A stretch of 41,420 nucleotides of DNA from positions 1-41,420 of the IMG/VR virus record IMGVR_UViG_2721755647_000003; one strand, written 5' to 3'. This document shows positions 11,707 to 32,083 of the stretch, piece by piece (the stretch's first letter is position 1; each line of letters begins with the position of its first letter). The DNA is from a virus (Duplodnaviria; Heunggongvirae; Uroviricota; Caudoviricetes). Made by a program: the position numbers and the translations under genes. Below the pieces are notes generated by a model, which worked only from the letters and a program-made list of their open reading frames with translations, made no database searches and was not told the DNA's origin.

Positions 11707-12037
11707 ATCCCCCGCAGAACGCAAAGCCGCGCAGCGCGCTCGGCAGTCCGCCGCCGGTGAGCGCAAAATTGAACTGGTGCTGGATAAGCAGGAGCAGGAA
11801 ATGCTGGAGCGTAACTGTGCCACGCGTCGCCCCGGGCGTGCGCCTTACGAATTTGGGGAGTATATAGCGTTACTGATCCGCCAGGATGATGCACGCGTGC
11901 GCGGGCGTATAAAATCGATTAGCAGAAAACGTTGCGGTAAGTGCGGCGAGAAAGTTCCCGTTAATTCATGCCCGTGTAATGGTGACTCGCAATGCTGGGT
12001 GACTAAAGGCTGGCATGAAACTAAATTAATAGTGTGA
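11699..12037 (+). CDS. Cys-rich small protein in the Q (late regulator) position (about 112 aa; start uncertain, GTG 11699 or 11690)
   Basis: C-terminal CGKCGEKVPVNSCPCNGDSQCW zinc-finger-like cluster; last gene before a terminator and the terminase genes. Confidence 0.5.
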   Translation: MAKSPAERKAAQRARQSAAGERKIELVLDKQEQEMLERNCATRRPGRAPYEFGEYIALLIRQDDARVRGRIKSISRKRCGKCGEKVPVNSCPCNGDSQCWVTKGWHETKLIV

Positions 12038-12045
12038 CATGTCAC
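12034..12045. repeat. Perfect 12-bp palindrome GTGACATGTCAC (copy 1), contains the stop codon of the preceding gene
   Basis: Exact sequence read from window; TGA at 12035-12037 lies inside it. Confidence 0.9.
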
Positions 12046-12086
12046 GAGTAGATTATGCATGATGAATTTGATGGGTTTTGAATACT

Positions 12087-12112
12087 GCCGCCAACTATGG
12101 CGGCTTTATTTT
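12087..12112 (+). terminator. Intrinsic terminator between the Q-position gene and the terminase (tR'-like)
   Basis: GCCGCC-AACTAT-GGCGGC followed by TTTATTTT. Confidence 0.6.
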
Positions 12113-12155
12113 GCATGGTACTATTACCACAACGGTAACAATTACCAGGGTGGTT

Positions 12156-12788
12156 ATGATGCCTGCTGAACCTAAAACCTATAAACGCAAATCAACGCAA
12201 TTTAAGCCACTAACCGCAATGCAGGAGGCTTATTGCCAGTCATACATCAAAACGCCTGAAAACCAGACTCAGGCAGCGATTAACGCAGGATTCTCCCCAA
12301 ATACAGCGGCAGTTAAAGCCAGTGTCATGATGCGCGATGAACGCATTCAAAAACGGATTGCCGAGTTGATGGAGGAGCGCAACAAACGAATGCGCGTCAG
12401 TGCCGATTACGTTCTCATGCGCCTGGTGGAGATCGACCAGATGGACGTGCTGGATATACTGAACGATGACGGCGGGATGAAGCCGATCGCTGAATGGCCG
12501 AAGGTCTGGCGTACCTCTCTCAGTGCTATGGATATCGCTACCATCAAGACAACCCAGGCTTCCCTGCAAAAAGAGAATGGCGAGGCGGATCTCTCTGTTG
12601 AGGATGTCGAGCATATCCTGAAGAAGGTGAAATGGCCCGACAAGGTGAAAAACCTCGAGCTCATCGGTAAGCACGTCGACGTTAACGCGTTCAAAGAACG
12701 TCTGGATGTTAATGTGAATGTGACAATTGCTGATCGCATAGCAGCAGCCAGGAAGCGACTCAAAGAACGTCAGGATGGTAATCAGTGA
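12156..12788 (+). CDS. Terminase small subunit, P27-type (210 aa)
   Basis: Resembles P27-family small terminase subunits; ATG at 12156 after AGGGTGG; upstream part of the track ORF overlaps the terminator hairpin; coupled to the large subunit. Confidence 0.75.
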   Translation: MMPAEPKTYKRKSTQFKPLTAMQEAYCQSYIKTPENQTQAAINAGFSPNTAAVKASVMMRDERIQKRIAELMEERNKRMRVSADYVLMRLVEIDQMDVLDILNDDGGMKPIAEWPKVWRTSLSAMDIATIKTTQASLQKENGEADLSVEDVEHILKKVKWPDKVKNLELIGKHVDVNAFKERLDVNVNVTIADRIAAARKRLKERQDGNQ

Positions 12789-14260
12789 CAGATACAGCGT
12801 TATCTCCTGAAGAGCAGTTGATCGAGGATATTGCAGGGTTCACTCACGATCCGCTTGGCTATGCCCTCTATGCGTTCCCGTGGGGGGGAGAGGGGACTGA
12901 ACTGGCACATGCCACCGGCCCACGTCAGTGGCAGGCTGATGCGTTCCGAGAGATACGTGATCACCTGCAGAATCCAGAGACGCGCTATCAGCCGCTTATG
13001 CTGGCACGCGCTTCTGGTCACGGTATTGGTAAATCCGCATTCATCTCAATGCTGATCAACTGGGGCATGTCCACTTGCGAGGATTGTAAGGTCGTGGTGA
13101 CTGCCAACACCGACAACCAGCTACGAACGAAGACCTGGCCGGAAATTATCAAGTGGTCGAACCTTGCTATCACGAAAGACTGGTTTACCTGTACCGCTAC
13201 CGCGATGTACAGCAATGATCCTGGGCACGACAAGCGGTGGCGAGCTGACGCAATCCCCTGGTCTGAGCACAACACTGAGGCATTCGCCGGACTACACAAC
13301 GAGCGCAAACGCATCATCGTGGTATTCGATGAAGCGTCGAACATTGCGGATCTGGTGTGGGAAGTTGCTGAGGGTGCGCTTACGGACGAAGACACTGAGA
13401 TTATCTGGGTGGCGTTCGGAAACCCTACACGTAACACCGGGCGTTTCCGCGAATGTTTCCGCAAATATAAACACCGCTGGAAAACTGCGCAGATTGACAG
13501 CCGGACGGTGGAAGGCACTAACAAACAGCAGTTGCAGAAATGGGTTGATGACTACGGGGAAGACAGCGACTTCGTTAAAATCCGTGTGCGCGGCATATTC
13601 CCTGATGCATCTGAATTGCAGTTTATCCCTACCGGTCTTACTGATGAGGCAATGAAACGGGTGGTAACCGCTGCGCAGGTGGCGCATGCTCCGGTGATAA
13701 TCGGTGTTGACCCGGCATATTCAGGCGTTGATGACGCGGTGATATACCTGCGGCAGGGGCTACACAGTAAGGTGCTGTGGACTGGCAACAAGACTACCGA
13801 CGATCTGATTATGGCGAAGCGTATCGCTGACTTTGAAGACCTGTATCAGGCTGACGCAGTGTTCATCGACTTTGGTTACGGTACCGGTCTGAAGTCAATC
13901 GGTGACGGTTGGGGGCGCACATGGCAACTTGTTCCGTTCGGTGGCGCGTCTACTGACCCGCAGATGCTCAACAAGCGTGGGGAGATGTTCAACTCATGCA
14001 AGACATGGCTGAGGCTGGGCGGGATGCTTGATGACCAGGAAACAGCGGACGACCTGTCGGCGGCAGAGTACAAAGTTCGAGTGGACGGTAAAATCGTTAT
14101 CGAACCGAAGGAAGATATCAAGGAGCGGCTTGGGCGTTCGCCGGGTAAAGGCGATGCGCTATTGCTGACGTTTGCTTTCCCTGTGTCGAAGCGTCTGCGA
14201 ATTCCAGGTCAGCAGAACCAGCAAGGCAAGGCCATTACAGATTACGATCCCTATGCTTAA
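12785..14260 (+). CDS. Terminase large subunit (491 aa, GTG start)
   Basis: Walker A-like ARASGHGIGKS; size and position; GTG overlaps the small-subunit stop (GTGA). Confidence 0.85.
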   Translation: MTDTALSPEEQLIEDIAGFTHDPLGYALYAFPWGGEGTELAHATGPRQWQADAFREIRDHLQNPETRYQPLMLARASGHGIGKSAFISMLINWGMSTCEDCKVVVTANTDNQLRTKTWPEIIKWSNLAITKDWFTCTATAMYSNDPGHDKRWRADAIPWSEHNTEAFAGLHNERKRIIVVFDEASNIADLVWEVAEGALTDEDTEIIWVAFGNPTRNTGRFRECFRKYKHRWKTAQIDSRTVEGTNKQQLQKWVDDYGEDSDFVKIRVRGIFPDASELQFIPTGLTDEAMKRVVTAAQVAHAPVIIGVDPAYSGVDDAVIYLRQGLHSKVLWTGNKTTDDLIMAKRIADFEDLYQADAVFIDFGYGTGLKSIGDGWGRTWQLVPFGGASTDPQMLNKRGEMFNSCKTWLRLGGMLDDQETADDLSAAEYKVRVDGKIVIEPKEDIKERLGRSPGKGDALLLTFAFPVSKRLRIPGQQNQQGKAITDYDPYA

Positions 14261-14310
14261 TCCGCTGGTGGGGATAATGTCGTTGATATCCTCTGGTGAG
14301 GATAAAACAA

Positions 14311-14330
14311 AGCCAGCTCATAGGCTGGCT
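14311..14330. terminator. Hairpin between convergent terminase and Gp49-like genes (acts as terminator at least on the minus strand)
   Basis: AGCCAGC-TCATAG-GCTGGCT; the minus strand continues into TTTGTTTTAT. Confidence 0.5.
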
Positions 14331-14334
14331 GTTT

Positions 14335-14346
14335 GTGACATGTCAC
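14335..14346. repeat. Perfect 12-bp palindrome GTGACATGTCAC (copy 2)
   Basis: Exact sequence; 4 nt after the stop of the minus-strand gene and directly before the hairpin. Confidence 0.9.
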
Positions 14347-14350
14347 GGTG

Positions 14351-14722
14351 TTATTGCTCGCTTAACTTCTGCTTCAGCAAGTAACCTTCAAGCATCCAGA
14401 TTTTGTTTACAGCATTCTGCCTGGCAATCTTCCGACCAATTTCTGCATCAAAGTTTTCCGGGCTTGCACATGCGCTCTCTCCGGTGACGGTGAAGCCGTT
14501 GCGCAGCACCAGGACGCAGAACGTCAGCAGAGAAAGTGATTCGTGCGGCTGGTAGTTTACCTCTCCGCCAGTATGTTTCGCTTTTATGGCTTTGCCAAAG
14601 GCACCATCTTCTGCTGTGAAATATGCCCCCTGAGCAATAATGCCTTCGATATGGTCTGGCGTAACGCGCGGTGCCGTTTTGCCTTTCTCAACGATTTCTT
14701 TTTCGATTTGCTTGTCGTTCAT
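14351..14722 (-). CDS. Gp49-like phage protein (N4 Gp49 / Sf6 gp66 family; 123 aa)
   Basis: Family call by resemblance only (not searched); AAGGTGAG RBS directly follows the T-run of an upstream terminator. Confidence 0.6.
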   Translation of the reverse strand: MNDKQIEKEIVEKGKTAPRVTPDHIEGIIAQGAYFTAEDGAFGKAIKAKHTGGEVNYQPHESLSLLTFCVLVLRNGFTVTGESACASPENFDAEIGRKIARQNAVNKIWMLEGYLLKQKLSEQ

Positions 14723-14732
14723 AATCTCACCT

Positions 14733-14758
14733 TAAAAAAAATGCCCGGCGAACCGGGC
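14733..14758 (-). terminator. Intrinsic terminator between the tRNA and the Gp49-like gene
   Basis: Minus strand reads GCCCGG-TTCG-CCGGGC followed by ATTTTTTTT. Confidence 0.55.
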
Positions 14759-14921
14759 GAACTGGAAGCAATGAGTTATGCCTTCCGTGGCTGTACGGGT
14801 TTACAGCATGAAGTCATCGCAATGGCGTCCTGCTGTAAAAAGGGCGGTGATAGTCCTTCAAGGGAAACCATCACCGCCAAGCCCCTGGAACTTCTGGCAT
14901 CACGGTCCTTAGGCGTGATTC

Positions 14922-14998
14922 TGGCGTGGCATGCAGGATTCGAACCTGCGACCAACCGCTTAGAAGGCGGTTGCTCTGTCCGACTGAGCTAATGCCAC
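14922..14998 (-). tRNA. tRNA-Arg, anticodon UCU (77 nt, CCA encoded)
   Basis: Cloverleaf folded by hand: acceptor GTGGCAT/ATGCCAC, D-stem GCTC/GAGC, anticodon stem ACCGC/GCGGT with loop CTTCTAA, T-stem GCAGG/CCTGC, T-loop TTCGAAT, discriminator G, CCA. Confidence 0.85.
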
Positions 14999-15320
14999 AA
15001 CGCTGAGAGCACTTAGCCTGTTAAGGCGCCACACTTTGTCGCGGCTCCATAAATGCTCTCATCGTTGTACCCTCGTCTCTTCCGAGGCGTCACACCGAAT
15101 CGCCGGGATGGTGAATCCCCGTGCGCGGAATAAAACCGCTCGACTTGCACATTCCGGCTACCTGGTTCGTTTGCCCGAGCAAGGGAGGGTGCCCCTTAAA
15201 CGTATCCAGACCGCTATCGGCGCATGTGCCATACGCCGTACTGCTCAAAATAAAAGCTCACTCCACCTGTTTAATTTAACGACAAGCCAGTCAGGTTAGT
15301 AACCAGAATGAGCTCTTTAG

Positions 15321-15335
15321 TTACCTGAAAGGTAA
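15321..15335. promoter_or_regulatory. Perfect palindrome TTACC-TGAAA-GGTAA upstream of the morphogenesis operon
   Basis: Exact sequence; AT-rich region about 90 bp before the first structural-block ATG. Confidence 0.55.
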
Positions 15336-15425
15336 TAATTAACGCGTTAAATGTCAACCTTCTACGATAAATAAATCATATGTGGTTAAATTGGTAATAA
15401 TTTAATTGCGTACGGAGTCATTGAT

Positions 15426-15632
15426 ATGTGCATGGGTAGCTCACCATCAGTGCCTGCAACACCAGAAGTTCAGGCAGCACCACAGGAGCAGGATGCCGCC
15501 GTTGTTGATGCCCGCGACGAAGAAACACGTCGCCGTCGCGCTGCTGCTGGTCGTAGTTCTACGCTGCTTACCGGTTCTCAGGGCGACACATCAACTGCTA
15601 ATACCAGCGGTAAAACGCTGCTTGGTCAGTAA
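15426..15632 (+). CDS. Small hypothetical protein (68 aa) preceding the portal gene
   Basis: GGAG RBS; Ala/Arg-rich low-complexity sequence. Confidence 0.5.
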   Translation: MCMGSSPSVPATPEVQAAPQEQDAAVVDARDEETRRRRAAAGRSSTLLTGSQGDTSTANTSGKTLLGQ

Positions 15633-15646
15633 CCGGAGTCATTGAA

Positions 15647-17326
15647 ATGGCGGAAACAACTAAAGAGCGATTGAACAAACAGTTCGCACAACTTGAAAGC
15701 GAGCGTCAGTCGTTCGAGCCGCACTGGCGCGAGTTGAGTGATTACATCAACCCGCGTGGTTCCCGCTTTCTGACTTCTGAGGTCAACCGTAACGATCGAC
15801 GCAATACACGCATTATTGATTCGACCGGGACTATGGCGGCGCGCACTCTCGCCAGCGGCATGATGTCAGGCATCACAAGCCCTGCGCGTCCGTGGTTTCG
15901 CCTGGCTACGCCAGATCCTGAAATGATGGATTATGGTCCTGTTAAGTTGTGGCTCGAGGCGGTGCAGAACCGCATGAACGATATGTTCAATAAGTCGAAT
16001 CTCTACCAGTCTCTTCCGCAGTTATACGGAAGCCTCGGCACATACAGCACTGGTGCAATGGCGGTGCTGGAGGATGACGAGGACATCATTCGCACAATGC
16101 CATTCCCGATAGGCAGTTACTACCTGGCTAACTCACCTCGTGGCAGTGTGGACACCTGTTTTCGCAAGTTCTCTATGACTGTTCGTCAGCTTGTTCAGGA
16201 GTTCGGGCTAAATAACGTCAGCGAATCCGTAAAAAGCATGTGGGAAAGCGGCACCTACGAGAAGTGGATTGACGTGATGCATTCGGTTTACCCGAACATT
16301 GACCGCGATACATCGAAGCTGGATAGCAAGAACAAGCCATTCAAATCGGTTTATTACGAGGTTGGTGGCGATAACGACAAGTTGTTGCGTGAGTCCGGAT
16401 TTGATGAGTTTCCAATTATGGCTCCGCGCTGGGAAGTTAATGGCGAAGATGTTTATGGATCATCATGCCCGGGTATGCTGGCGCTTGGACCTGTTAAGGC
16501 ATTGCAGCTTCTCCAGAAGCGCAAGTCGCAGTTGATTGATAAAGCCACCAATCCGCCGATGGTTGCTCCGACTTCCCTCAAGAATCAGCGTGCCTCCCTT
16601 CTTCCTGGCGACATCACGTATATCGATCAGATTACTGGTCAGGATGGTTTCAGGCCTGCTTATCTGGTTAACCCCAGTACAGCAGATTTGGTGGCAGACA
16701 TTCAGGACACTCGTCAAATCATTAACAGCGCCTACTTTGTCGATCTGTTCATGATGTTGCAGAACATCAATACCCGCTCGATGCCTGTTGAAGCGGTGAT
16801 CGAAATGAAAGAAGAAAAACTTCTGATGTTGGGGCCGGTTCTGGAGCGTCTGAACGACGAATGTCTTAATCCTCTCATTGACCGCTCTTTCTCGATGATG
16901 GTGCGTAAAAACATGCTGCCGCCACCGCCAGACGTGATGGAAGGTATGCCCCTGAAGGTCGAATACATTTCCGTCATGGCTCAGGCGCAGAAGTCTATCG
17001 GCCTGTCCAGTCTGGCGTCCACGGTTAACTTCATTGGTCAACTTGCGCAAGCGAAACCAGAAGCTCTCGACAAACTCAACGTTGATCAGGCGATCGATGC
17101 ATTCGCTGATATGTCCGGAGTGTCTCCAACCGTCATTGTTCCGCAGGAACAGGTTGAGCAGGCTCGCCAGCAACGGGCACAGCAACAACAGCAGCAACAA
17201 ATGATGGCGATGGGGATGGCGGCGGCACAGGGTGCCAAGACGCTAAGCGAAGCTAAAACTTCGGATCCGAGTGTTTTGTCAGCTATGGCGAATGCAGTTA
17301 GTGGTCAGGGTGGGCAATCACAATGA
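15647..17326 (+). CDS. Portal protein, T7 gp8-like (559 aa)
   Basis: Gln/Met/Ala-rich C-terminal tail (QQQQQQMMAMGMAAAQG) and N-terminal region resemble podoviral gp8-type portals; follows the terminase genes. Confidence 0.8.
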   Translation: MAETTKERLNKQFAQLESERQSFEPHWRELSDYINPRGSRFLTSEVNRNDRRNTRIIDSTGTMAARTLASGMMSGITSPARPWFRLATPDPEMMDYGPVKLWLEAVQNRMNDMFNKSNLYQSLPQLYGSLGTYSTGAMAVLEDDEDIIRTMPFPIGSYYLANSPRGSVDTCFRKFSMTVRQLVQEFGLNNVSESVKSMWESGTYEKWIDVMHSVYPNIDRDTSKLDSKNKPFKSVYYEVGGDNDKLLRESGFDEFPIMAPRWEVNGEDVYGSSCPGMLALGPVKALQLLQKRKSQLIDKATNPPMVAPTSLKNQRASLLPGDITYIDQITGQDGFRPAYLVNPSTADLVADIQDTRQIINSAYFVDLFMMLQNINTRSMPVEAVIEMKEEKLLMLGPVLERLNDECLNPLIDRSFSMMVRKNMLPPPPDVMEGMPLKVEYISVMAQAQKSIGLSSLASTVNFIGQLAQAKPEALDKLNVDQAIDAFADMSGVSPTVIVPQEQVEQARQQRAQQQQQQQMMAMGMAAAQGAKTLSEAKTSDPSVLSAMANAVSGQGGQSQ

Positions 17327-17619
17327 CAGATTACGAAGACGATCAACTGAAAGAAGAAAACGCCCGTAAGCAACGTGACATGGCACAGCGTGAAATTGAT
17401 GACATTCGCTTTGTCATGAGCAGTGAACAGGGGCGTCGCGTTGTCTGGTCGGTGCTGGAGAAAGGCCGGGTGTTTTCCGCTATCTCTCCGATGGATGCTA
17501 TGGCAATGGCATTTAATGAGGGGCAACGCAATCTGGCGCTGGAACTGTTTCAGCGCGTTATGGCGCATTGCCCTGAACAGTATTTGAAGATGGCCAAAGA
17601 GGCCAGTGAACAGGAGTGA
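17323..17619 (+). CDS. Hypothetical protein (98 aa)
   Basis: ATG overlaps the portal stop (ATGA). Confidence 0.6.
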   Translation: MTDYEDDQLKEENARKQRDMAQREIDDIRFVMSSEQGRRVVWSVLEKGRVFSAISPMDAMAMAFNEGQRNLALELFQRVMAHCPEQYLKMAKEASEQE

Positions 17620-17621
17620 TC

Positions 17622-18317: not shown

Positions 18318-18331
18318 GAGAGGAAATGACA

Positions 18332-24067: not shown

Positions 24068-24612
24068 TGTGCGATCCGGTTATTGCTGGTGGCGCAATGC
24101 TCGCCATGAGTGGCATTCAGGCATACACCCAGTACCAACAGGGAAAGTATGCCTCGAAGGTTGCAGAAGCGAACGCAGATATAGCCACAGCTCAGGCAAA
24201 TGATGCAATAAACAGAGGTAACGCTGAAGCTGAGCAACGGCGCAGAGAGACCCGACAGCGGCTTGGTACACAGGCGGCGACAATGGGGGCTACCGGCGCT
24301 GATTTATCTACAGGTAACGCGCTGGATATATTTGGCGACACTGCCCAGTTTGGCGCTCTTGATTCGCTGACGACGGTGAATAACGCGCAACGCGAGGCTT
24401 ACGGTTATCAGGTTCAGGCTGCCAACTATAAAGCAGAAGCCAGTTCAGCCCGTAAACAGGGGAATGTGGGAGCAGCAACAACATTGCTCACTGCGCCTCT
24501 GAAGGCATACGGTGCGTACCAGATGTTTGGTGGGACGTGGAGTCCGTTTACTCAAAGCACTCCTGCGCCAATCGGGGCAGCAGCAGGAACCAGATTGCCA
24601 GGAGGATTATAA
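24067..24612 (+). CDS. Internal virion protein (181 aa), gp14-position
   Basis: Ala/Gly/Gln-rich low-complexity protein with hydrophobic N-terminus; gene order. Confidence 0.55.
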   Translation: MCDPVIAGGAMLAMSGIQAYTQYQQGKYASKVAEANADIATAQANDAINRGNAEAEQRRRETRQRLGTQAATMGATGADLSTGNALDIFGDTAQFGALDSLTTVNNAQREAYGYQVQAANYKAEASSARKQGNVGAATTLLTAPLKAYGAYQMFGGTWSPFTQSTPAPIGAAAGTRLPGGL

Positions 24613-27233
24613 TGCCAGTCGTACCAACAGTATCCGGCCGTCAGGTTCAGAGCCGTGGAGTTCAGTCAGCAGGCTTGCAGACGTTTTCTCAGCCAGGTAT
24701 TGGTGATGCTTTTGTTCGGGCAGGGACAGAGGCAATTGATGTTTTTGGTCAGGCAAAACAGCGTGCCAATATCGCTCTGGCTCAGGAGGCATCTCTTAAC
24801 CTCAGTCAGATAAGCAGTGATCTGCTGAATAACCCTGAAACAGGTTTGCTTAACCTGAAAGGGAAAAATGCTATTGGAAAAGGTCAGGAGTATACGCAGC
24901 AGTTTGATGCTCAGATCGAACAACTGGCTATGTCGCTGCCGGATGAACAGGCTCGTAATGCTTTCATGCAGCAGGCGCAGCAGCAGCGTATTCAGTTCAC
25001 TACGCAGGCCGGGCGGCACGAGATAGGGCAGGTTCGCCAGTATGAGGCGGATATGCAGGATGCGACACTAAAAAACCTATCGATGCAGTTCCGTAACCCG
25101 ACAATGGCAAACCAGGCAGGATTGAAGGCATATCATAGCATCATCGCTTACGGCGAAGCCCACGGCCAGAGTCAGGAAGAGATCGAACAGAACTGGGTTT
25201 CGTGGCGCGAGAATGCCGCGAACGGTGCGGCGGAGGCGTGGTATGTGCCGATGTATCAACAGATGATGGGGCCGAACGGCAAGATTGAGGTAACCGATAC
25301 ACCGAGTGAGGCGCAGTTATTCTCTGCAATAATCTGGCAGGAGAGTGGCGGAAATCAGTACGGAAAGGACGGAACACCTCTGGTGTCGCCAAAAGGCGCT
25401 GTTGGCGTAGCGCAGGTGACGGAAGATACTGGCCCCGAAGCTGCCCGCCTTGCTGGTGTGCCGTGGGACCGAGATAAATGGTTGAATGACCCGCGCTATA
25501 ATGCCCGCTTGGGGCAAGCTTATTTCGGCGCGCAGATGAAGAAATACGACAATAACCCGGTTCTGGCAGTAGCTGCCTATAACGCTGGCCCAGGAAAGGT
25601 TGACGGCTGGATTAAACAGATTGGCGATCCGCGCACAGGCGAAGTCAGTAACGCCCAGTTTGCCGCAGCTATCCCATACGACGAGACGCGCAATTATGTG
25701 GCAAAAGTAACTGGCAGTGCTGGAGCTATTCCTGGATCTGCGACGATGGAAAACCTCATCGCACAGCCATTCTGGAACGCCATGAGTCCGGACAAAAAGT
25801 CGCAGATGATGAGCAAGGTTGCTGGCATGTACGACATGCAGGCTTCAGCCGGTCGCGTTGCGCTACAGAGTCGAATGCAGGACGACCTATCCAAAATTGA
25901 GGCCGGTAAGCAGGTGACGCCTATTTCAGCGCACGAATGGGCCGCCGTTATGCCGCTTCAGGCTGCGCCTGCCGAGCGCCTGCAGATGGAAAAAACCTTC
26001 CAGCAATACCAGCAGGCAATGACGCTACAACCTGTTTATCAGACCATCATGCAGGGCAACGTCCAGCAGGGTACCGCCGCCGTGCAGGCAATGGCACCGC
26101 AGGAAAACGACCCTGACTTTAAATACAAAGCCGAGCTTTATGCATCGGCAAAGGTCAAGCTTGGGCAGGTACTGAAGGCGCGGGAAGCGGATCCGGGGGC
26201 ATGGCTGCAACAAAACTCTCCGGTTGTGCAGGCTGCATTCCAGCAGTACCTCAATGACCCTTCATCTGGTGAATACCTAGTTTCCCGCATACAGTCTGAA
26301 AAAGACCGCCTGGGGATAATGAGCAAAAAAGTTTTACCGGAGTCCATGGTCAACGACGTACTGCAGCGTATTGACAACACGCAGGAATCTAGCGTAAAGG
26401 CCATTCAGTCGGTGGCGCAGTCGTTCGGAAAATACTCGGATCAGGTGATGCAGCAGGTTCAGAAGAGCGCTTATCCTGCGTTGCAGGTTGTCATGGCTAC
26501 CGAGAACCCGCGCGCGGCAAATGCGCTCTGGCAAAACCGTAGCGTTAAAACTGCTGACTTACGCGGCAGTCTTGAGAAAACCGACGCGGATAGCGCCGAC
26601 TCGTCATGGAATGACCAATCGAAAGATTTTGCTGGCACGATGGTTGTTCAGCCTGGTGGCACTGCCGTGTGGAATAACTTCAACGAGCAGGGAAAACGAC
26701 TTACTTACATCAACATGCAGCGCGGAATGTCGGCGTCTGATGCAGCAAAACAGGCGTATCAGGACATCCTCGGCGAGCAGTATCAGACCAATGGCACTTG
26801 GCGGCTACCTAAGCGTGCAGGGATAGATATTCGTGACGTTAACGATGGTGCCAATGCGTATCTGAAAAACCTGTCAGCAGATCAGATTATGCCGCTTATT
26901 GGTGACCCAAGGCTACCTGATGAGGTCAACCGTGAGCAGAGTATCTCCCGCATTCGTGATAATGCGCAGTGGGTTACCAACAGCGACGAAACAGGACTTA
27001 CCCTGATGCTCAACGGGCTGATCGTCAACGGTGCCGACGGCAACCCGATTACGGTGCCGTTCAACGATCTGGCGAAACTGGGAACAACCAACCGATCAGT
27101 ATGGAACAGCATTACCAAGTTCATTGATACTCCGGTGAAATATACTCCCGGACAGTCTAAGGAATACAGCGCAGAAAGTCAGCGCGACAACCTGATTAAC
27201 ATTTTCCAGAACGGCCAGCAATCAGGACGATAA
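24612..27233 (+). CDS. Internal virion / ejection protein with lytic transglycosylase (SLT) domain (873 aa)
   Basis: SLT-type motifs WQESGGNQ and AAYNAG; ATG at 24612 after GGAGG. Confidence 0.75.
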   Translation: MPVVPTVSGRQVQSRGVQSAGLQTFSQPGIGDAFVRAGTEAIDVFGQAKQRANIALAQEASLNLSQISSDLLNNPETGLLNLKGKNAIGKGQEYTQQFDAQIEQLAMSLPDEQARNAFMQQAQQQRIQFTTQAGRHEIGQVRQYEADMQDATLKNLSMQFRNPTMANQAGLKAYHSIIAYGEAHGQSQEEIEQNWVSWRENAANGAAEAWYVPMYQQMMGPNGKIEVTDTPSEAQLFSAIIWQESGGNQYGKDGTPLVSPKGAVGVAQVTEDTGPEAARLAGVPWDRDKWLNDPRYNARLGQAYFGAQMKKYDNNPVLAVAAYNAGPGKVDGWIKQIGDPRTGEVSNAQFAAAIPYDETRNYVAKVTGSAGAIPGSATMENLIAQPFWNAMSPDKKSQMMSKVAGMYDMQASAGRVALQSRMQDDLSKIEAGKQVTPISAHEWAAVMPLQAAPAERLQMEKTFQQYQQAMTLQPVYQTIMQGNVQQGTAAVQAMAPQENDPDFKYKAELYASAKVKLGQVLKAREADPGAWLQQNSPVVQAAFQQYLNDPSSGEYLVSRIQSEKDRLGIMSKKVLPESMVNDVLQRIDNTQESSVKAIQSVAQSFGKYSDQVMQQVQKSAYPALQVVMATENPRAANALWQNRSVKTADLRGSLEKTDADSADSSWNDQSKDFAGTMVVQPGGTAVWNNFNEQGKRLTYINMQRGMSASDAAKQAYQDILGEQYQTNGTWRLPKRAGIDIRDVNDGANAYLKNLSADQIMPLIGDPRLPDEVNREQSISRIRDNAQWVTNSDETGLTLMLNGLIVNGADGNPITVPFNDLAKLGTTNRSVWNSITKFIDTPVKYTPGQSKEYSAESQRDNLINIFQNGQQSGR

Positions 27234-27234
27234 C

Positions 27235-28932
27235 ATGCCAATTTACACAGATGATCCGGGACAGGGCATTAACCAGCCAATTGGCAACGCGCCAGCAGGG
27301 CTTGGCGAATCGCTGCTTTCTTCCCTTAAGCAGGGATTTGAAGAGGGGCCGGTCATGTCCGGCTACCGCTTTGCGCAGGCCGACTCGCTGGCGAATGACC
27401 CAAACTCTACAGTTATCAGTAAGCAGGACGCAGATGAGCTCCTGAAGCAGTACGGCGTAAAGAGCATAAACGTGCCAGATTCTGGCGTTACGCAGGCTTT
27501 TCTCGATCATGTTATTGCCGAACGCAAAGATTCTCTGGCACGCCAGCAGATTGCGATGTCGGCACCGAGCGGGTGGGTAGCCACGCCGCTTAATTTCGCA
27601 GCCAGCCTAGCTGGTTCAATGGCAGATCCTGGTAACGTGGCGCTGGCGCTGGTTCCGTTCGCTGGAGAAGCAAAGGCAGCTTCTGTGCTTGGCCGATTTG
27701 GCGAGCGATTTGTTGCTGGTGCACGCATGGGGGCAGCGCAGGCGGTGGTGACCGTGCCGCTTACCGGGCTGGCAGCGGCGGCGGAAGGTGACGACTTCAC
27801 CTATAGCAACGCGTTGGAAAGTACTTTCTTTAACACGATGGCTGGCGGTCTAATGCATGCCGGCGGCGGCCTTATCGCCGATATCGTGCGACCGCGTCGC
27901 GTTCCCGATGCTGCAACGGGAGAGTCCCCGGCGTTTTCTGGCGATGCGCAGCCAACCCCGGTGATAACGCCTGACAACATTCCGGCGGGCGTGAATATCC
28001 CTGAGGTTGGCGCTAACGCAGATCTGGCGGCGGCCATTTCCAGTGAAGCGGAGAGCTACGCATACAGCCGGGCTTATGACGACGTGGTTCCTGACTATAT
28101 GGCGCGCCAGCAGGAGTTACAGAGCGGGCAGATCGGTAACGTTGCCGACCTGCGTGCCGAGCTTGCGGCTAATCAACGTCATGCTGACTCGCTTGATGCG
28201 ACGCTGCAACAGCGCACCAAAAAGTATCAGGGGAAGCGGATGAAGTTTAAGGATGCGCGCTCTAGGGCACTGAAAGAGATTCAGGCCGAGAAAGACGCCA
28301 TCGCTGCACGCAATCAGGAGATCAACACATCGCTGGAGCAGAACGCGACAGCAGAGCAGGCGCGCTGGCGCCAGTCTCAGATTTCCCGCGGCGAGATCCC
28401 CGACGACCTGAAAGTCACCATTTCCGAGCGTGCGCAGCAGATCCTGGACGGCATGCAGATGTCGCCGGTCGCTGGCGCAGTTCGCACTGCCGCAAGCGCC
28501 ATCAGGGATGCTGACTGGAGCGTGAACCAGCAGGCGTATCGCGCTGCGCTGGCACACATGATGGAAGGACGTAGCCCAGATGTTGAGCCCTTCTATGAAC
28601 TGCACAAACCGGCACTGCGTGAACGCGCCATCCATCGCATACAGAATCCGGCACGGCAGGTTGATGAAACGGCTCGCCCAGCAAGCGAAACAGCCGATCG
28701 GGTTTATCAAGAAACGCAAAAGGCAGATCATGAAATTACCGCTGCCGCTGCAGACCTTGATAACGAGCTCAACCTGAGTAACGCCCTGCTTGACGATATC
28801 GCTGTCGATAACCCTGATCTTGCGACCACGTTGCGCCAGAAACTCAATGATATTCGTGCCGACGCCAGCGACAATAGCATGAGCAACGCTTTCCGGGCAT
28901 TTGCCGCCTGTATGATTAACCGGGGGATGTGA
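27235..28932 (+). CDS. Internal virion / ejection protein (565 aa)
   Basis: Large Ala-rich ORF in the ejection-protein block. Confidence 0.6.
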   Translation: MPIYTDDPGQGINQPIGNAPAGLGESLLSSLKQGFEEGPVMSGYRFAQADSLANDPNSTVISKQDADELLKQYGVKSINVPDSGVTQAFLDHVIAERKDSLARQQIAMSAPSGWVATPLNFAASLAGSMADPGNVALALVPFAGEAKAASVLGRFGERFVAGARMGAAQAVVTVPLTGLAAAAEGDDFTYSNALESTFFNTMAGGLMHAGGGLIADIVRPRRVPDAATGESPAFSGDAQPTPVITPDNIPAGVNIPEVGANADLAAAISSEAESYAYSRAYDDVVPDYMARQQELQSGQIGNVADLRAELAANQRHADSLDATLQQRTKKYQGKRMKFKDARSRALKEIQAEKDAIAARNQEINTSLEQNATAEQARWRQSQISRGEIPDDLKVTISERAQQILDGMQMSPVAGAVRTAASAIRDADWSVNQQAYRAALAHMMEGRSPDVEPFYELHKPALRERAIHRIQNPARQVDETARPASETADRVYQETQKADHEITAAAADLDNELNLSNALLDDIAVDNPDLATTLRQKLNDIRADASDNSMSNAFRAFAACMINRGM

Positions 28933-31481
28933 TGGCAGCAAACGAATTTTTGACGCAGTGCGAGCGCAGTGTAAATGCTGCCGCTGGTCGCGAGCTTTCT
29001 TCCGATGAGATGGAGTCGCTGGTGCGTGACATGAACGACACCACTAGGCGAATTCTGGCGACCAATGAGGCGCTGTCTCTGGAAGAGGCCGCGATGCGCG
29101 CAGCGGAAGAACTGAGCAATGCCGATATGCTGGCAAAACAGATTGAGGCTCGCAATAAGGCAATCAACACCCGTATTGCCGCACAACGACTTAGAGAGCT
29201 TCGTACTATCTGGAAAGACCGCCCGGATATCGGGCTTGAAGCAATGCTGGTTGGCCGCAACGATGCGCGTACCGGCGCCCGCCGGTCGGTATCTTCGGAG
29301 GTGGCGCAACTGCGCGGCAAGTATCATTCCGGTATCAACTACGATTTTGACCGTGCCGGGCTGGTGCAATTCATCGCCAGCGGCAGCAATGACAGGGAAA
29401 TTGCCGATGCAATGTGGCGCATAGGGCGCGGGCAGTCAACTGACGGTATGACAAAGCAATCCGTAAGCGCTGCACAAATCATCATGAAATGGCAGGAAAC
29501 TGCGCGCATTGATGAGAACCGCGCCGGGGCATGGATACGCAAAGAGCCGGGCTATATAGTGCGCCAGTCACACGACATCATGAAGATCCGCGCCGCAGGT
29601 TATGAAGCATGGCGAAATGCTATTCTCCCGCGCCTTGATGAGCGCACTTTTGACGGCGTGGCTGACCGCGAGCAGTTCATGCGTAACATTTATAACGGGC
29701 TGGCTTCCGGCGTGCATCTTACATCTGAAAAGCCAGATTGGATGAATGGCTTTAAGGGATCGGCGAACGCAGCTAAACGCGCCAGCCAAGAGCGAATTTT
29801 GCACTTCAAAGATGGTATCTCGTGGCACGAGTACAACCAGCAATTCGGCACCGGCAGCCTGCGAGAGGCGCTGTTTGGTGGCTTAAACAGCGCTGCCCGC
29901 ACAACGGGCATGATGCGCGTACTGGGCACTAACCCACAGAACATGTTTAAGTACCTGACGGACACCATTGCTGAAGATATCAGCAAATCCGGAAGACCGG
30001 CAGCGTTGGCTGACTACATGACGAAGGTGCGTCGCATTAACCGTACCGTAATGCCGCAGGTTGACGGCTCGCTAAATATTCCTGGCAGCGTAGGCTGGGC
30101 CAATGCGTCGGCGGCTGTACGCGGCTGGTTGCGTATGAGCCAGCTTGGTGGCGCGGTAATCTCATCGTTTAACGACGTGCCTATCGCCGCTACCGAGATG
30201 CGCTACCAAGGGCAGAATTTTATGCAGGCGTTGCTTGGTGCTATGAGAGGCCGCTTCACGCGTTACAACAGCGCGGAGCAGAAAGAGATCCTTTCCTCTA
30301 TCGGAGTTTATTCCGACTCCATGACGCAGGAAATCATCCGGCGCATATCTGGTGATGACACGCTGAATGGAAAACTTGGTCGCGCGCAGCAGCTTTTCTT
30401 TAAGTACAACCTCATGAACTTCTGGACCGAGAGCGGTCGTAACAGCAACGCCATGATGATAACCAACTGGCTTGCAAAGAATGCTGACCAGTCTCATGCG
30501 CGGCTACCGGAAGACCTGCGACGCGTGCTGGATCTGCACGGTATTGGCGAACGTGAGTGGGAAATTTTTCGTAACATGGACATGGCCGATAGCGAAGGTC
30601 GTAAGTTCATGACGACCAGCGGCATGCGCGGCGTGCCTGACGAAGTGATTGCCGGTTATGTAGAGAGTAAGGGGATCAAACCAACGCAGCGCGCTATCGC
30701 TGACGCACGCGATCAATTGGAAGGGCAGTTGCGCGGCTACATCCTTGACCGCCTGAATATCGCCATGTCAGAGCCTGGCGATCGCACGCAGGCGTTTATG
30801 AAGATGGGCACGGTGCCAGGAACGGTGGCTGGGGAAGCAATACGATTCGCTGGTCAATACAAATCGTTCACTGCAAGCTTCATGCAGAACGTACTAGGAC
30901 GCGAAGTATTCGGGCGTGGTTATATTCCTGCTGGGCTTGGTGAGTCGAAAACCGGATCGCTGACGAATGCGCTGCTACGTAACGGGAAGGGGGCTTTCCT
31001 TGGTGCTGCAAACCTCTTTGTCTGGGCGACTATGTTTGGTTATATCTCCATGCAGTCAAAACTCATGCTGAAAGGGCAAACACCACGCCCGGCAGATGCC
31101 AAGACGTTTCTCGCAGCCGCATCTCAGGGGGGCGGTCTTGGCATCTTGGGTGACTTCATGTTTGGCGAGGTCAACCGCATGGGGGCCGGGCCGGTTACGT
31201 CGCTAATGGGACCGGCAGCATCGAACGCTGACAGCATTATCACGCTGCTCCAGCAGACCACGAGAGGGGATGCAGATTTGGGTGACTGGTATCGCACGGC
31301 ACTTGACAATACGCCATTCCTCAACGTGTTCTGGCTTCGTACGGCGATGAATGGTTTAATATTGAACAGGATACAAGATGCCCTTGACCCAGGCTCTCTT
31401 GAGCGTTATCAGCGCCGTGTTGAGCGTGAGCAGGGTAACGACTTTCTGATCCCACCATCGCAGTTCATGCTAGGTAAATAA
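28932..31481 (+). CDS. Internal virion / DNA ejection protein (849 aa), gp16-position
   Basis: Large ORF coupled to the previous gene; last gene of the GC-rich structural block. Confidence 0.6.
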   Translation: MAANEFLTQCERSVNAAAGRELSSDEMESLVRDMNDTTRRILATNEALSLEEAAMRAAEELSNADMLAKQIEARNKAINTRIAAQRLRELRTIWKDRPDIGLEAMLVGRNDARTGARRSVSSEVAQLRGKYHSGINYDFDRAGLVQFIASGSNDREIADAMWRIGRGQSTDGMTKQSVSAAQIIMKWQETARIDENRAGAWIRKEPGYIVRQSHDIMKIRAAGYEAWRNAILPRLDERTFDGVADREQFMRNIYNGLASGVHLTSEKPDWMNGFKGSANAAKRASQERILHFKDGISWHEYNQQFGTGSLREALFGGLNSAARTTGMMRVLGTNPQNMFKYLTDTIAEDISKSGRPAALADYMTKVRRINRTVMPQVDGSLNIPGSVGWANASAAVRGWLRMSQLGGAVISSFNDVPIAATEMRYQGQNFMQALLGAMRGRFTRYNSAEQKEILSSIGVYSDSMTQEIIRRISGDDTLNGKLGRAQQLFFKYNLMNFWTESGRNSNAMMITNWLAKNADQSHARLPEDLRRVLDLHGIGEREWEIFRNMDMADSEGRKFMTTSGMRGVPDEVIAGYVESKGIKPTQRAIADARDQLEGQLRGYILDRLNIAMSEPGDRTQAFMKMGTVPGTVAGEAIRFAGQYKSFTASFMQNVLGREVFGRGYIPAGLGESKTGSLTNALLRNGKGAFLGAANLFVWATMFGYISMQSKLMLKGQTPRPADAKTFLAAASQGGGLGILGDFMFGEVNRMGAGPVTSLMGPAASNADSIITLLQQTTRGDADLGDWYRTALDNTPFLNVFWLRTAMNGLILNRIQDALDPGSLERYQRRVEREQGNDFLIPPSQFMLGK

Positions 31482-31483
31482 TA

Positions 31484-32044
31484 ATGAAGGCAATTATATT
31501 TTTTGTTTCAATATTGATGTCTGCATTTTCTTTTGCAGGGCAAAATGTTAAATGCGAACTTCAATACTTTGGAGATAGCGATAAATTTAAGGTAACTCAG
31601 TTTTCTTTTATGGGGATTCCATCTGATTCATACCTTTATACCTGTGCCGACTGTGGAGGCATCCAGATAAACGTGTTCCCATCTATTCAGACTGTTGCTT
31701 CCTACTCATTTGAAAACAACATTGATTTCGAAAGGAAAATCAATGCTGAATACAACAGAAAAGACATAGCTAAACTTGAGATGGAAAACGTTACTCAAGG
31801 CGGGAGAATAAAATATTCAATCACCGATACTGGTTTGGCAGAGTTTTACCCAGAGGGCAAAAAGATAAGCTACCTCTACTTTTTAGCCAAGCAACAAAAT
31901 GGTAAAGAACAAGTAGGTTATTCAGGATTTGTTACCTCTAACGGGGATAAGTCATGCTCAATTATTGCGACATATCCAGGAAAAGAAATTTCTTTTCTGG
32001 GAAGTAAATCTCTAAGCTACTTTATGAATCATATATCAATGTAG
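31484..32044 (+). CDS. AT-rich secreted protein of unknown function (186 aa), signal peptide predicted by eye
   Basis: N-terminal MKAIIFFVSILMSAFSFAGQ hydrophobic signal; Cys-containing mature part; marked AT-richness relative to neighbours. Confidence 0.6.
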   Translation: MKAIIFFVSILMSAFSFAGQNVKCELQYFGDSDKFKVTQFSFMGIPSDSYLYTCADCGGIQINVFPSIQTVASYSFENNIDFERKINAEYNRKDIAKLEMENVTQGGRIKYSITDTGLAEFYPEGKKISYLYFLAKQQNGKEQVGYSGFVTSNGDKSCSIIATYPGKEISFLGSKSLSYFMNHISM

Positions 32045-32045
32045 C

Positions 32046-32057
32046 GTGACATGTCAC
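32046..32057. repeat. Perfect 12-bp palindrome GTGACATGTCAC (copy 3)
   Basis: Exact sequence; 1 nt after the TAG stop, directly followed by a terminator hairpin. Confidence 0.9.
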
Positions 32058-32083
32058 AGGCCGCTTTCGCGGCCTTGTTTTTT
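32058..32083 (+). terminator. Intrinsic terminator after the secreted-protein gene
   Basis: AGGCCGC-TTTC-GCGGCCT followed by TGTTTTTT. Confidence 0.65.

What the first reader, a model, noticed from the sequence alone, without database searches (positions are those of the whole stretch)
12034..32083. Exact 12-bp palindrome GTGACATGTCAC occurs three times, each wedged between a stop codon and an intrinsic terminator
Copies are at 12034-12045 (containing the stop of the Q-position gene), 14335-14346 (4 nt after the Gp49-like stop on the minus strand) and 32046-32057 (1 nt after the secreted-protein stop). About 0.005 copies of a given 12-mer are expected by chance in 41 kb on both strands. In each case a hairpin terminator follows in the direction of transcription, immediately in two cases and about 40 bp downstream in the third. 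This stop-palindrome-terminator module marks the 3' ends of inserted or regulatory genes. It could be a protein-binding site, an RNA processing element, or a recombination scar for moron acquisition.
Basis: seen in the sequence. Interest (0 to 1): 0.65.

Follow-up and report, generated by a model that had tools for sequence, protein, structure and literature searches.

The report
Phage matS-like protein-binding palindrome
The three identical 12-base palindromes are real, are conserved in related phages, and are most likely docking sites for a small DNA-binding protein encoded right next to one of them; this gene-plus-site unit is shared by many temperate phages and nearly copies the matS sites that organise the E. 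coli chromosome end.

Summary
Observation confirmed: GTGACATGTCAC occurs exactly three times (0 expected), each between a stop codon and an intrinsic terminator. The window is an epsilon15/phiV10-like prophage of E. coli ECONIH2.

- **Conservation:** the same three junctions carry the 12-mer in epsilon15 and phiV10, although flanks, terminators and neighbouring genes differ.
- **The motif:** it is the core of a 14-bp dyad, Y-GTGAC-NN-GTCAC-R.
- **Gene linkage:** it is tied to the 112-aa basic, Cys-rich gene at 11699-12037 (PHROG 536). Of 41 homologues found by protein alone, 30 have the dyad at their own stop codon. These sit in epsilon15-, lambda/ZF40-, P2-, N15- and Mu-like phages.
- **Spacing:** strictly N2, with 75 sites against about 1 for every other spacing.
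- **Other copies:** some lie inside genes with synonymous positions frozen.
- **The protein:** its model resembles ribbon-helix-helix proteins, weakly.
- **matS:** the site equals host matS (GTGACRNYGTCAC) minus its central base.

Best reading: cognate binding sites of this phage protein. Their effect is unresolved, either marking or bridging DNA as MatP does, or controlling RNA polymerase at unit ends. The data do not support a promoter, an RNA element, a cassette-borne scar or a host repeat. The system is undescribed in the papers searched and moderately interesting.

The parts
12033..12046 (.). Site 1: TGTGACATGTCACG, a 14-bp dyad. Its first arm contains the TGA stop of the candidate binder gene.
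   Evidence: The same position holds the dyad in epsilon15 (39612) and phiV10 (split over the record ends). In 24 of 41 homologues the stop codon is this TGA.
14334..14347 (.). Site 2: TGTGACATGTCACG, at the convergent junction between terL and the Gp49_66 gene, on the side of the terminator hairpin facing the Gp49_66 gene (opposite the run that gives the minus-strand U-tract).
   Evidence: The homologous site is in epsilon15 (2142) and phiV10 (2262). It is present at 23 of 32 TerL 3' junctions.
32045..32058 (.). Site 3: CGTGACATGTCACA, at the end of the head-tail operon, abutting the terminator stem.
   Evidence: The homologous site is in epsilon15 (19517) and phiV10 (19493) behind three different upstream genes.
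11699..12037 (+). Candidate binder: a 112-aa protein (epsilon15 gp49 / phiV10p55 / PHROG 536). It has a basic N-terminal helix, a ribbon-helix-helix-like core and a C-terminal Cys4 cluster.
12087..12112 (+). Intrinsic terminator between site 1 and terS (stem 12087-12104 plus T-run).
   Evidence: The equivalent feature is annotated in epsilon15 at 39646-39672.
14303..14330 (-). Intrinsic terminator of the minus-strand Gp49_66/tRNA-Arg unit (stem 14330-14311 plus T-run). On the + strand only a weak GTTTGTG tail follows, and it runs into site 2.
32058..32083 (+). Intrinsic terminator of the head-tail operon (stem 32058-32075 plus T-run). It is one-directional.
14351..14722 (-). Gp49_66 family gene (PF13876), whose 3' end faces site 2. 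It is a neighbour, not part of the system.
   Evidence: Close homologues in an Stx2a phage and mEpX1 lack the palindrome.
31484..32044 (+). Variable last gene of the structural operon (PHROG 11983), whose stop precedes site 3. It is a neighbour, not part of the system.
   Evidence: Different genes occupy this slot in phiV10 and epsilon15.

Best explanation
**What it is.** The 12-mer is the core of a 14-bp two-fold symmetric DNA site, Y-GTGAC-NN-GTCAC-R. Its most likely ligand is a dimer of the small protein encoded at 11699-12037, whose stop codon lies inside copy 1. That protein is basic, ribbon-helix-helix-like and zinc-cluster-bearing (inferred).

**A travelling unit.** Gene and site form a unit that has spread through at least five kinds of temperate phage: epsilon15-like, lambda/ZF40-like, P2-like, N15-like and Mu-like. 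Each genome holds one to three isolated sites.

**In this prophage.** The protein is made from the last gene of the early rightward operon. It would occupy three sites at unit boundaries: early genes | terminase, terminase | minus-strand insert, and head-tail operon | minus-strand accessory genes. All three sit in the short free stretch between a stop codon and a terminator.

**What is shown and what is inferred.**
- Shown: the conservation, the gene-site linkage, the strict 2-bp spacing and the DNA-level constraint inside genes.
- Inferred: that this protein is the binder.
- Least certain: the consequence of binding.

**My preferred reading of the consequence.** The system works like host MatP on matS. 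The phage site is matS with its central base removed. Single dimers would mark the phage DNA at a few dispersed points and, through the C-terminal domain, bridge sites or recruit or exclude a partner. I put this at about 0.4, given that the protein is the binder. A direct effect on RNA polymerase at the adjacent terminators is nearly as likely, at about 0.35.
For: **Non-random and conserved.**
- Three exact copies against 0 in shuffles.
- The same three junctions carry it in epsilon15 (about 77% identical DNA) and phiV10. The terminator sequences and neighbouring genes differ.

**Linkage to the gene, tested without reference to the site.**
- 41 loci were chosen by protein homology alone. In 30 the dyad lies within -60..+30 nt of the gene's stop, and in 24 the stop is the TGA of the first arm. 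39 of 41 have at least one site in the locus.
- Where the ORF is longer, the site lies inside its 3' end and encodes V-T-G-H.

**Symmetric double-stranded DNA recognition.**
- In 963 kb of such loci, GTGAC-Nk-GTCAC occurs 0, 1, 75, 1, 0, 0, 0, 0, 0 times for k = 0-8, against 0.92 expected for each.
- The arms are invariant down to 33-37% protein identity. The centre is free (AT, GC, TG, CT, AC, CG). The flanks are Y...R.

**DNA-level constraint inside genes.** Three unrelated genes all encode (C/R)-D-M-S across the identical 12-mer, amid variable neighbours. They are a roughly 100-aa early-left gene (PHROG 2479), a cII-like gene and a lambdoid Q.

**The matS parallel.**
- matS is GTGACRNYGTCAC, with consensus GTGACATTGTCAC, and is bound by the RHH protein MatP (PMC6907758, PMC8669397).
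- The named hosts of the family are Enterobacterales, Vibrio and Aeromonas, with one exception.
Against: - No binding experiment exists.
- Profile comparison with Arc/Mnt/CopG and with MatP puts the RHH in register, but at a probability below 1%. Homology to MatP is therefore not shown, and the shared arms could be coincidence.
- Some homologues lack a site at their own end (L138, L143, L145, L146, L149, L154), and one locus has none (L166).
- Site 2 is dispensable in close relatives.
- In this window all three sites touch or precede terminators, as does a fourth context in a Serratia prophage. A pure DNA-marking role explains this only through the argument that these are the free slots in a compact genome.
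Confidence: 0.65

Rival explanations
1. Same binder, different purpose. The sites exist to control RNA polymerase at unit ends. One version is a protein roadblock or insulator. It would stop read-through in both directions at one-way terminators, and by sitting on its own stop codon it would also limit its own mRNA. The other version is a locally acting antiterminator loaded at the site, which lets early or late transcripts pass the adjacent hairpin. That would be a Q-like early-to-late switch without a promoter-embedded site.
For: - All three sites in this window, and their counterparts in epsilon15 and phiV10, lie 0-41 nt from intrinsic terminators whose sequences are unrelated to one another.
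- In a Serratia prophage the site lies 1-2 nt before a terminator between the protease and major capsid genes, which late transcription must cross.
- The order gene - site - terminator - terS mimics lambda Q - qut - tR' - late genes. Epsilon15-like phages have no recognisable Q.
- At both convergent junctions the site is on one flank of the hairpin and the T-run on the other.
Against: - About half of the independent placements are inside coding sequences with no terminator nearby.
- The homologue coexists with bona fide late regulators in ZF40 (Q-like), N15-like (Q) and P2-like (Ogr) phages.
- Sites are single and isolated, unlike strong operators.
- Every lytic unit here, terS included, already starts with repressor-operator-like dyads, so no late switch is obviously needed.
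- Site 2 can be lost.
- A roadblock inside a transposase gene or at the start of Q would be self-defeating.
Confidence: 0.25
2. The sites are variant matS sites bound by host MatP (or another host protein). The linkage to the phage gene would then be incidental.
For: The arms are identical to matS, and the commonest phage form equals consensus matS minus one base. The hosts are largely the group in which MatP is known, which I state from my own knowledge.
Against: - Spacing is N2 in 75 of 77 dyads in these loci, and N3 (true matS) is at chance level.
- There is no 13-bp matS in the window.
- Losing one base pair turns the half-sites by about 36 degrees.
- Host binding offers no reason for the site to overlap the stop codon of one particular phage gene in five phage lineages.
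Confidence: 0.06
3. The palindrome is a recombination linker or scar. It would be a short conserved sequence at module boundaries through which inserted genes are gained and swapped, with no protein ligand.
For: On one side of each site the flank drops to near-random similarity while the other side stays conserved. Different genes occupy the slots next to sites 2 and 3 in different phages.
Against: - The same Gp49_66 gene elsewhere carries no palindrome.
- Where the terL junction was replaced, the break is at the terL stop codon, not at the palindrome.
- BLAST mosaic breakpoints fall 50-110 bp away from site 3.
- Sites inside genes, with frozen synonymous positions and strict N2 spacing, cannot be explained by a scar.
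- No dedicated recombinase was found.
Confidence: 0.06
4. The palindrome acts as RNA, as a small hairpin at mRNA 3' ends that serves as a processing or stability signal or as part of the terminator.
For: It is always transcribed. It lies in 3' untranslated regions next to terminator hairpins in this phage.
Against: - The hairpin is only 4-5 bp with a 4-nt loop and folds at -2.9 kcal/mol, no better than shuffled sequence (z = -0.18). It stays separate from the terminator stems.
- The invariant positions include bases that would lie in the loop.
- The symmetric Y...R flanks and the tolerance of any centre fit a protein dimer on duplex DNA.
- Many copies are inside ORFs.
Confidence: 0.03

Closest known systems
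MatP / matS of E. coli (Ter macrodomain organiser)
   Same: - The 5-bp arms GTGAC/GTCAC are the same. The 6-bp arms GTGACA/TGTCAC are the same in the commonest form.
- A ribbon-helix-helix-type protein is the (candidate) binder.
- Single isolated dyads are dispersed kilobases apart, many of them inside genes.
- The hosts are enterobacteria and vibrios.
   Different: - The site is 12 bp rather than 13 bp, with a strict N2 rather than N3 spacer.
- The protein is not in the MatP Pfam families. It lacks the N-terminal four-helix bundle and has a Cys4 cluster in place of the C-terminal coiled coil.
- It is phage-encoded, with one site fused to its own stop codon.
- No link to MukBEF, ZapB or the terminus has been shown.
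Lambdoid Q protein with its qut/QBE site
   Same: - The regulator gene is the last early gene, its site lies directly downstream, and a terminator and then terS follow.
- Gene and site are inherited as one specificity unit.
   Different: - There is no similarity to any Q family.
- The site is not embedded in a promoter (no -10 element at the right distance).
- Homologues coexist with real Q or Ogr regulators.
- Further sites lie inside genes.
ParB/Spo0J with parS (from my own knowledge: one B. subtilis parS lies inside spo0J)
   Same: A palindromic site lies within or at the 3' end of the gene for its own binding protein, and a few further copies are dispersed and tolerated inside coding sequence.
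   Different: The fold is different (HTH/CTPase against RHH-like). There is no ParA partner here, and most of these phages integrate rather than partition.
Ribbon-helix-helix repressors and their operators (P22 Arc and Mnt, CopG)
   Same: The protein is a small dimeric beta-ribbon DNA reader, and the DNA site is short and dyad-symmetric.
   Different: Those operators overlap promoters and usually hold two adjacent subsites bound by a tetramer. Here the sites are single, are not at promoters, and the protein carries an extra zinc-cluster domain.
Boundary or linker sequences at module junctions of lambdoid phages (from my own knowledge)
   Same: They are short conserved sequences found where conserved and variable segments meet.
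   Different: Here the sequence is a strict dyad with fixed spacing. It is linked to one gene, is also found within genes, and is absent from the same inserted gene in other phages.

Membership tests
MatP/matS | 13-bp site GTGACRNYGTCAC | tested here: not met
   The arms are identical, but the spacer is N2: 75 dyads with N2 against 1 with N3 in 963 kb. There is no 13-bp site in the window. The matS sequence comes from PMC6907758 and PMC8669397.
MatP/matS | Protein belongs to Pfam MatP (PF06303) / MatP_C (PF17414) | tested here: not met
   No Pfam hit for six diverse members, even at E <= 10. hhalign against E. coli MatP aligns the RHH in register, but with a probability of 0.4%.
MatP/matS | Ribbon-helix-helix DNA-binding core | tested here: inconclusive
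MatP/matS | Isolated single sites dispersed over the replicon, including inside genes | tested here: met
   There are three sites per genome in this window, epsilon15, phiV10, ZF40, Vibrio K303 and the N15-like phage. Several lie inside CDSs.
MatP/matS | Tetramerisation, site bridging, MukBEF unloading and ZapB binding | not testable with these tools
   The C-terminus is a Cys4 cluster, not a coiled coil. No interaction data exist.
Lambdoid Q / qut antitermination | Protein of a Q family | tested here: not met
   There is no Pfam or NCBIfam hit. ZF40 and the N15-like phage encode a separate Q as well as the homologue.
Lambdoid Q / qut antitermination | Binding element embedded in a sigma-70 promoter | tested here: not met
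   -10-like hexamers 16-18 bp from GTGACA occur in 7.5% of 333 unique site flanks, against 5.4% at control offsets. Promoter-like hits in the window are no more frequent than in shuffles.
Lambdoid Q / qut antitermination | Regulator gene directly upstream of its site, then a terminator, then late genes | tested here: met
   The order in the window is 11699-12037, site 12034-12045, terminator 12087-12104, terS from 12159. Epsilon15 has the same order.
RHH repressor/operator (Arc, Mnt, CopG type) | Operator overlaps the regulated promoter, usually as paired subsites | tested here: not met
   Sites are single (one tandem pair, in L152) and lie at 3' ends or inside genes.
Cassette 3' recombination site (integron attC-like) / insertion scar | The element travels with the inserted gene | tested here: not met
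   Gp49_66 genes 97% and 73% identical, in an Stx2a phage and mEpX1, have no GTGAC-NN-GTCAC within 3 kb.
Cassette 3' recombination site (integron attC-like) / insertion scar | Mosaic breakpoints coincide with the element | tested here: inconclusive
   Similarity drops on one side of each site. However, replaced terL junctions break at the terL stop codon, and one relative keeps the terminator and the gene without the palindrome.
Intrinsic terminator (as part of it) | Contributes to the G+C-rich stem or the U-tract | tested here: not met
   It folds as a separate weak hairpin (-2.9 kcal/mol, z = -0.18). The terminator stems are complete without it.

The most novel reading that the evidence does not exclude
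Temperate phages of enterobacteria and vibrios carry their own MatP/matS-like system. It uses a 12-bp 'matS minus one' code that host MatP does not read. With it they would mark replicating phage DNA and manipulate, or escape, the host SMC complex MukBEF or related loop-extruding defences, or disturb terminus organisation and cell division.
Probability: 0.18. Interest if true: 0.85.

Novelty: new variant of a known kind. Interest (0 to 1): 0.62.

Why it matters
- **A testable role for an unnamed protein family.** If the protein binds these sites, about 180 sequence clusters present in five major groups of temperate phage gain a DNA-binding function and a precisely defined target.
- **An open question in epsilon15-like phages.** The system may explain how these phages, which lack a recognisable Q, handle the terminators that separate their early, terminase, head-tail and accessory units.
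- **A link to host chromosome organisation.** The near-identity with matS raises the possibility that phages have copied, or converged on, the host's chromosome-organising code. That would connect phage development to MukBEF/MatP biology.
- **Practical use.** The 14-mer is a simple marker for this regulon, and the stop-codon overlap helps correct annotation.

Tried and rejected
**Readings tested and rejected.**
1. The palindrome as a promoter -35 element (GTGACA). The scan tool reports GTGACA-18-CATGAT at copy 1 and GTGACA-18-TATGAT on the minus strand at copy 3. Across 333 unique flanks, -10-like hexamers are not enriched.
2. An RNA hairpin. It is weak and no better than shuffles.
3. An element carried by the inserted gene. 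It is absent next to close Gp49_66 homologues in other phages.
4. The upstream protein as the Q-equivalent late regulator. Homologues coexist with Q or Ogr in other phages.

**Searches that led nowhere.**
5. Sequence-based naming of the protein. Pfam, NCBIfam and PDB (phmmer and profile) gave nothing.
6. The first AF2 run, with 27 close homologues, gave a poor model (pLDDT 57). A diverse alignment fixed this.
7. Profile-profile comparison with Arc/Mnt/CopG and with MatP gave the right register but negligible probability.
8. A MatP family search to build a better profile returned only 98-99% identical sequences.
9. Foldseek against the PDB and the viral library found nothing useful. afdb50 was not available.
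10. No paper held in the library contains the 12-mer. The 10-mer occurs only in unrelated contexts. The epsilon15 genome paper could not be opened. The ZX5 paper concerns the repressor, the antirepressor and the integrase.

**Other.**
11. The 1-mismatch copy at 17375 is not conserved in epsilon15, so I treat it as chance.
Full report
**1.

GTGACATGTCAC occurs exactly three times in the window, at 12034, 14335 and 32046. None of 100 dinucleotide-preserving shuffles contained a single copy.

- **Copy 1** contains the TGA stop of the CDS 11699-12037 and lies 41 nt upstream of a + strand terminator (stem 12087-12104).
- **Copy 2** lies 4 nt past the stop of the minus-strand gene 14351-14722 and 4 nt before that strand's terminator (14330-14311).
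- **Copy 3** starts 1 nt after the stop of 31484-32044 and abuts the terminator 32058-32075.

All three copies share a 14-mer, TGTGACATGTCACG. One 1-mismatch copy inside a gene (17375) is what chance predicts, and it is not kept in epsilon15.

**2. What the window is**

The window is 100% identical to a prophage of E. coli ECONIH2, lying between an integrase gene and yfgI. It belongs to the epsilon15/phiV10 group (Uetakevirus).

- The gene before copy 1 is the last gene of the early rightward operon (epsilon15 gp49, phiV10p55).
- terS and terL follow.
- Next comes a minus-strand insert, a Gp49_66 family gene (PF13876) plus tRNA-Arg.
- Then comes the portal-to-tail operon, which ends at copy 3 and faces minus-strand accessory genes.

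The three copies therefore sit at three transcription-unit boundaries.

**3. The sites are conserved where little else is**

Epsilon15 is a Salmonella phage with about 77% identical DNA. It has the 12-mer at the same three junctions (2142, 19517, 39612). phiV10 has it too, with one copy split across the record ends.

The adjacent terminators have different sequences. The genes upstream of the third site are three different genes in the three phages.

A scan of IMG/VR with the 14-mer returned more than 120 stretches. They fall into three main groups:

- the end of gp49-like genes, with many unrelated downstream sequences;
- the terL junction, with many different minus-strand neighbours;
- the end of the structural operon.

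There were also several other contexts.

**4. The motif is tied to one gene**

This is the central result.

*Where the gene occurs.* The 112-aa product of 11699-12037 belongs to PHROG 536. Homologues occur in phages with unrelated virion and regulatory modules:

- Pectobacterium myovirus ZF40;
- P2-like Yersinia phages;
- N15-like phage-plasmids;
- Vibrio siphoviruses;
- a Mu-like prophage.

ZF40 and the N15-like phage have their own Q, and the P2-like phages have Ogr. The protein is therefore not simply 'the Q' of these phages.

*The linkage test.* I collected 41 loci by protein similarity alone, without reference to the motif.

- 30 have GTGAC-NN-GTCAC within -60..+30 nt of the gene's own stop codon.
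- In 24 of them the stop codon is the TGA of the first arm.
- 39 of the 41 have at least one site somewhere in the locus.

Where the reading frame is longer, the site lies inside its 3' end and is translated as V-T-G-H.

*The spacing test.* In 963 kb of these loci, the count of GTGAC-Nk-GTCAC for k = 0 to 8 is 0, 1, 75, 1, 0, 0, 0, 0, 0, against about 0.9 expected for each.

- The arms never vary, even at 33-37% protein identity.
- The two central bases vary freely.
- The flanks are pyrimidine on the left and purine on the right.

This is the signature of a symmetric protein dimer reading duplex DNA.

**5. Other copies lie inside genes, under DNA-level constraint**

- ZF40 has three exact 14-mers. 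One follows gp22, one is inside gp08 and one is inside the cII-like gene.
- A family of roughly 100-aa early-left genes (PHROG 2479) carries the 12-mer in all seven members examined. It always encodes C-D-M-S, with synonymous positions unchanged, while the neighbouring residues vary.
- The motif also lies in the first codons of a lambdoid Q gene, in a phage that carries the homologue 12 kb away. It is inside a Mu-like transposase gene, inside N15-like repA, and directly before ribosome-binding sites, including that of terS in a Vibrio phage.

So 'stop-palindrome-terminator' describes this phage group. It is not a rule of the element.

**6. The protein**

- No Pfam, NCBIfam or PDB sequence match was found.
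- A diverse alignment shows a conserved basic N-terminal helix, a strand-helix-helix segment, a long helix and four invariant cysteines.
- With that alignment AlphaFold2 gives a confident model (pLDDT 88).
- Foldseek found nothing significant.
- Profile comparisons with Arc/Mnt/CopG and with MatP align the strand and helices in the expected register, but with negligible probability.

I therefore treat 'RHH-like, zinc-binding DNA-binding protein' as a reasonable inference, not a demonstrated fact.

**7. The resemblance to matS**

Host MatP contains an RHH domain. It binds matS, GTGACRNYGTCAC, with E. coli consensus GTGACATTGTCAC (PMC6907758, PMC8669397, PMC12756933).

- The commonest phage site, GTGACATGTCAC, is that consensus with the central base removed.
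- True 13-bp matS is neither present in the window nor enriched in these loci. MatP is therefore unlikely to be the ligand.
- The named hosts of the family are Enterobacterales, Vibrio and Aeromonas. The one exception is an N15-like contig in an alphaproteobacterial assembly.
- Like matS, the phage sites are single, dispersed and tolerated within genes.

Whether this reflects common descent, convergence or coincidence cannot be settled here.

**8. What it is not**

- **Not a promoter element.** -10-like hexamers at the right distance are no commoner than at control offsets.
- **Not a notable RNA structure.** The hairpin has -2.9 kcal/mol and z = -0.18, and it stays separate from the terminator stems.
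- **Not carried by the inserted gene.** Gp49_66 genes 97% and 73% identical, in an Stx2a phage and mEpX1, have their own terminator and no dyad within 3 kb.
- **Not a strict recombination breakpoint.**
  - Relatives that replaced the terL junction break at the terL stop codon.
  - One relative keeps the terminator and the gene but has ATGATGATG in place of the dyad.
  - One has a decayed copy, GTGACATGCCAC.
  - Overall, 23 of 32 TerL junctions carry the site.

**9. How it most likely works**

*Established:* the conservation, the gene-site linkage, the strict spacing and the constraint inside genes.

*Inferred:* a dimer of the 11699-12037 protein binds each site. I put this at about 0.65-0.7.

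*Uncertain:* the consequence of binding. Two readings remain.

- **(a) A MatP-like marking or bridging system.** This best explains the whole set of placements: single dispersed sites, sites inside genes, one site welded to the gene so that the pair cannot be separated by recombination, and no link to promoters. On this reading, the position between stop codon and terminator is one of the few neutral slots in a compact genome.
- **(b) Control of RNA polymerase at unit ends, as a roadblock or insulator or as a local antiterminator.**
  - This best explains why all three sites here lie 0-41 nt from terminators.
  - It also explains the site 1-2 nt before a terminator between the protease and capsid genes of a Serratia prophage.
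  - It explains why the order gene - site - terminator - terS mimics Q - qut - tR'.
  - Against it: every lytic unit here already begins with repressor-operator-like dyads (ATTACC-N5-GGTAAT, 14 copies against 1 expected). In addition, several placements in other phages would block essential genes.

I slightly prefer (a), at about 0.4 against 0.35, conditional on the protein being the binder.

**10. Novelty and limits**

No paper in the searchable library contains the 12-mer or describes a phage MatP-like system. The epsilon15 record annotates other motifs but not this one. The original epsilon15 paper could not be read, so I cannot exclude that it mentions the repeat.

As a kind of thing, binding sites for a phage DNA-binding protein, this is known. 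Four features are new:

- the family;
- the stop-codon-fused gene-site unit;
- its spread across five phage lineages;
- its near-identity with matS.

Everything about binding and function is inference from sequence. Whole host chromosomes could not be scanned for the dyad.

Noticed in passing
window 5495, 5557, 6269, 6654, 8594, 8656, 12123, 12141, 15320, 33788, 34848, 35228 (17-bp sites): A second, different dyad, ATTACC-N5-GGTAAT, occurs 14 times at up to 2 mismatches, against 1.03 expected. It sits at the start of essentially every lytic transcription unit, including terS, the portal unit and the tail-fibre gene. It matches the 'repressor' protein_bind features in the epsilon15 record. This suggests that the prophage repressor controls the late units directly.
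   Followed up: partly
window 12078-12161: The RefSeq terS start (TTG 12078) makes the gene run across the intrinsic terminator 12087-12104. The epsilon15-type start, ATG 12159 (MPAEPK...), with a Shine-Dalgarno sequence upstream, is much more plausible.
   Followed up: partly
window 12055-12081: An eight-codon ORF (MHDEFDGF*) lies between site 1 and the terminator. Its stop is 5 nt before the terminator stem. It is kept, with one amino-acid change, in L017, L132 and L133 but is frameshifted in L004. It could be a leader peptide that modulates termination, or it could be nothing.
   Followed up: partly
L005, L006, L128, L129, L134 (just after the palindrome); L143, L145, L146 (after the homologue): In several relatives the gp49-like gene is followed by a strong sigma-70-like promoter that overlaps a LexA-box-like sequence (for example TACTGTGTATTTATACAGTA). 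This suggests an SOS-controlled gene, perhaps an antirepressor, in the slot that holds the terminator in this window.
   Followed up: no
L143 15390-15440 (Serratia marcescens prophage): A palindrome plus a strong intrinsic terminator sits between the protease/scaffold gene and the major capsid gene, inside what should be one late operon.
   Followed up: partly
L124 (ZF40) 4919-5407; L137, L138, L139, L143, L145, L146: A roughly 100-aa early-left gene family (PHROG 2479, function unknown) always contains the 12-mer, translated as C-D-M-S. ZF40 gp08 appears to be annotated with an over-long N-terminus compared with its homologues.
   Followed up: partly
window 14922-14998 and 14351-14722 (minus strand): A tRNA-Arg gene and a Gp49_66 family gene form a minus-strand insert between terL and the portal unit. 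Relatives carry unrelated, often AT-rich genes in the same slot.
   Followed up: partly
window 10943-11584 and 35348-38104: The dATP/dGTP pyrophosphohydrolase/DUF551 gene is annotated as a truncated piece plus an overlapping CDS. The tail-fibre CDS is flagged incomplete by RefSeq, although an ORF of 918 aa runs to 38104.
   Followed up: no
L127 (Escherichia phage YDC107_1, CP025712.1): The deposited N15-like record contains a large inverted duplication. The protelomerase, repA and neighbouring genes appear twice in mirror orientation, so its dyad sites are counted twice.
   Followed up: no
L022, L041, L070, L108 (IMG/VR contigs): In other phages the 12-mer lies within arrays of GTGAC/GTCAC half-sites spaced about 10-11 bp apart. 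These may be iterons of a replication origin inside a gene. No gp49-like gene was seen in the stretches held.
   Followed up: no
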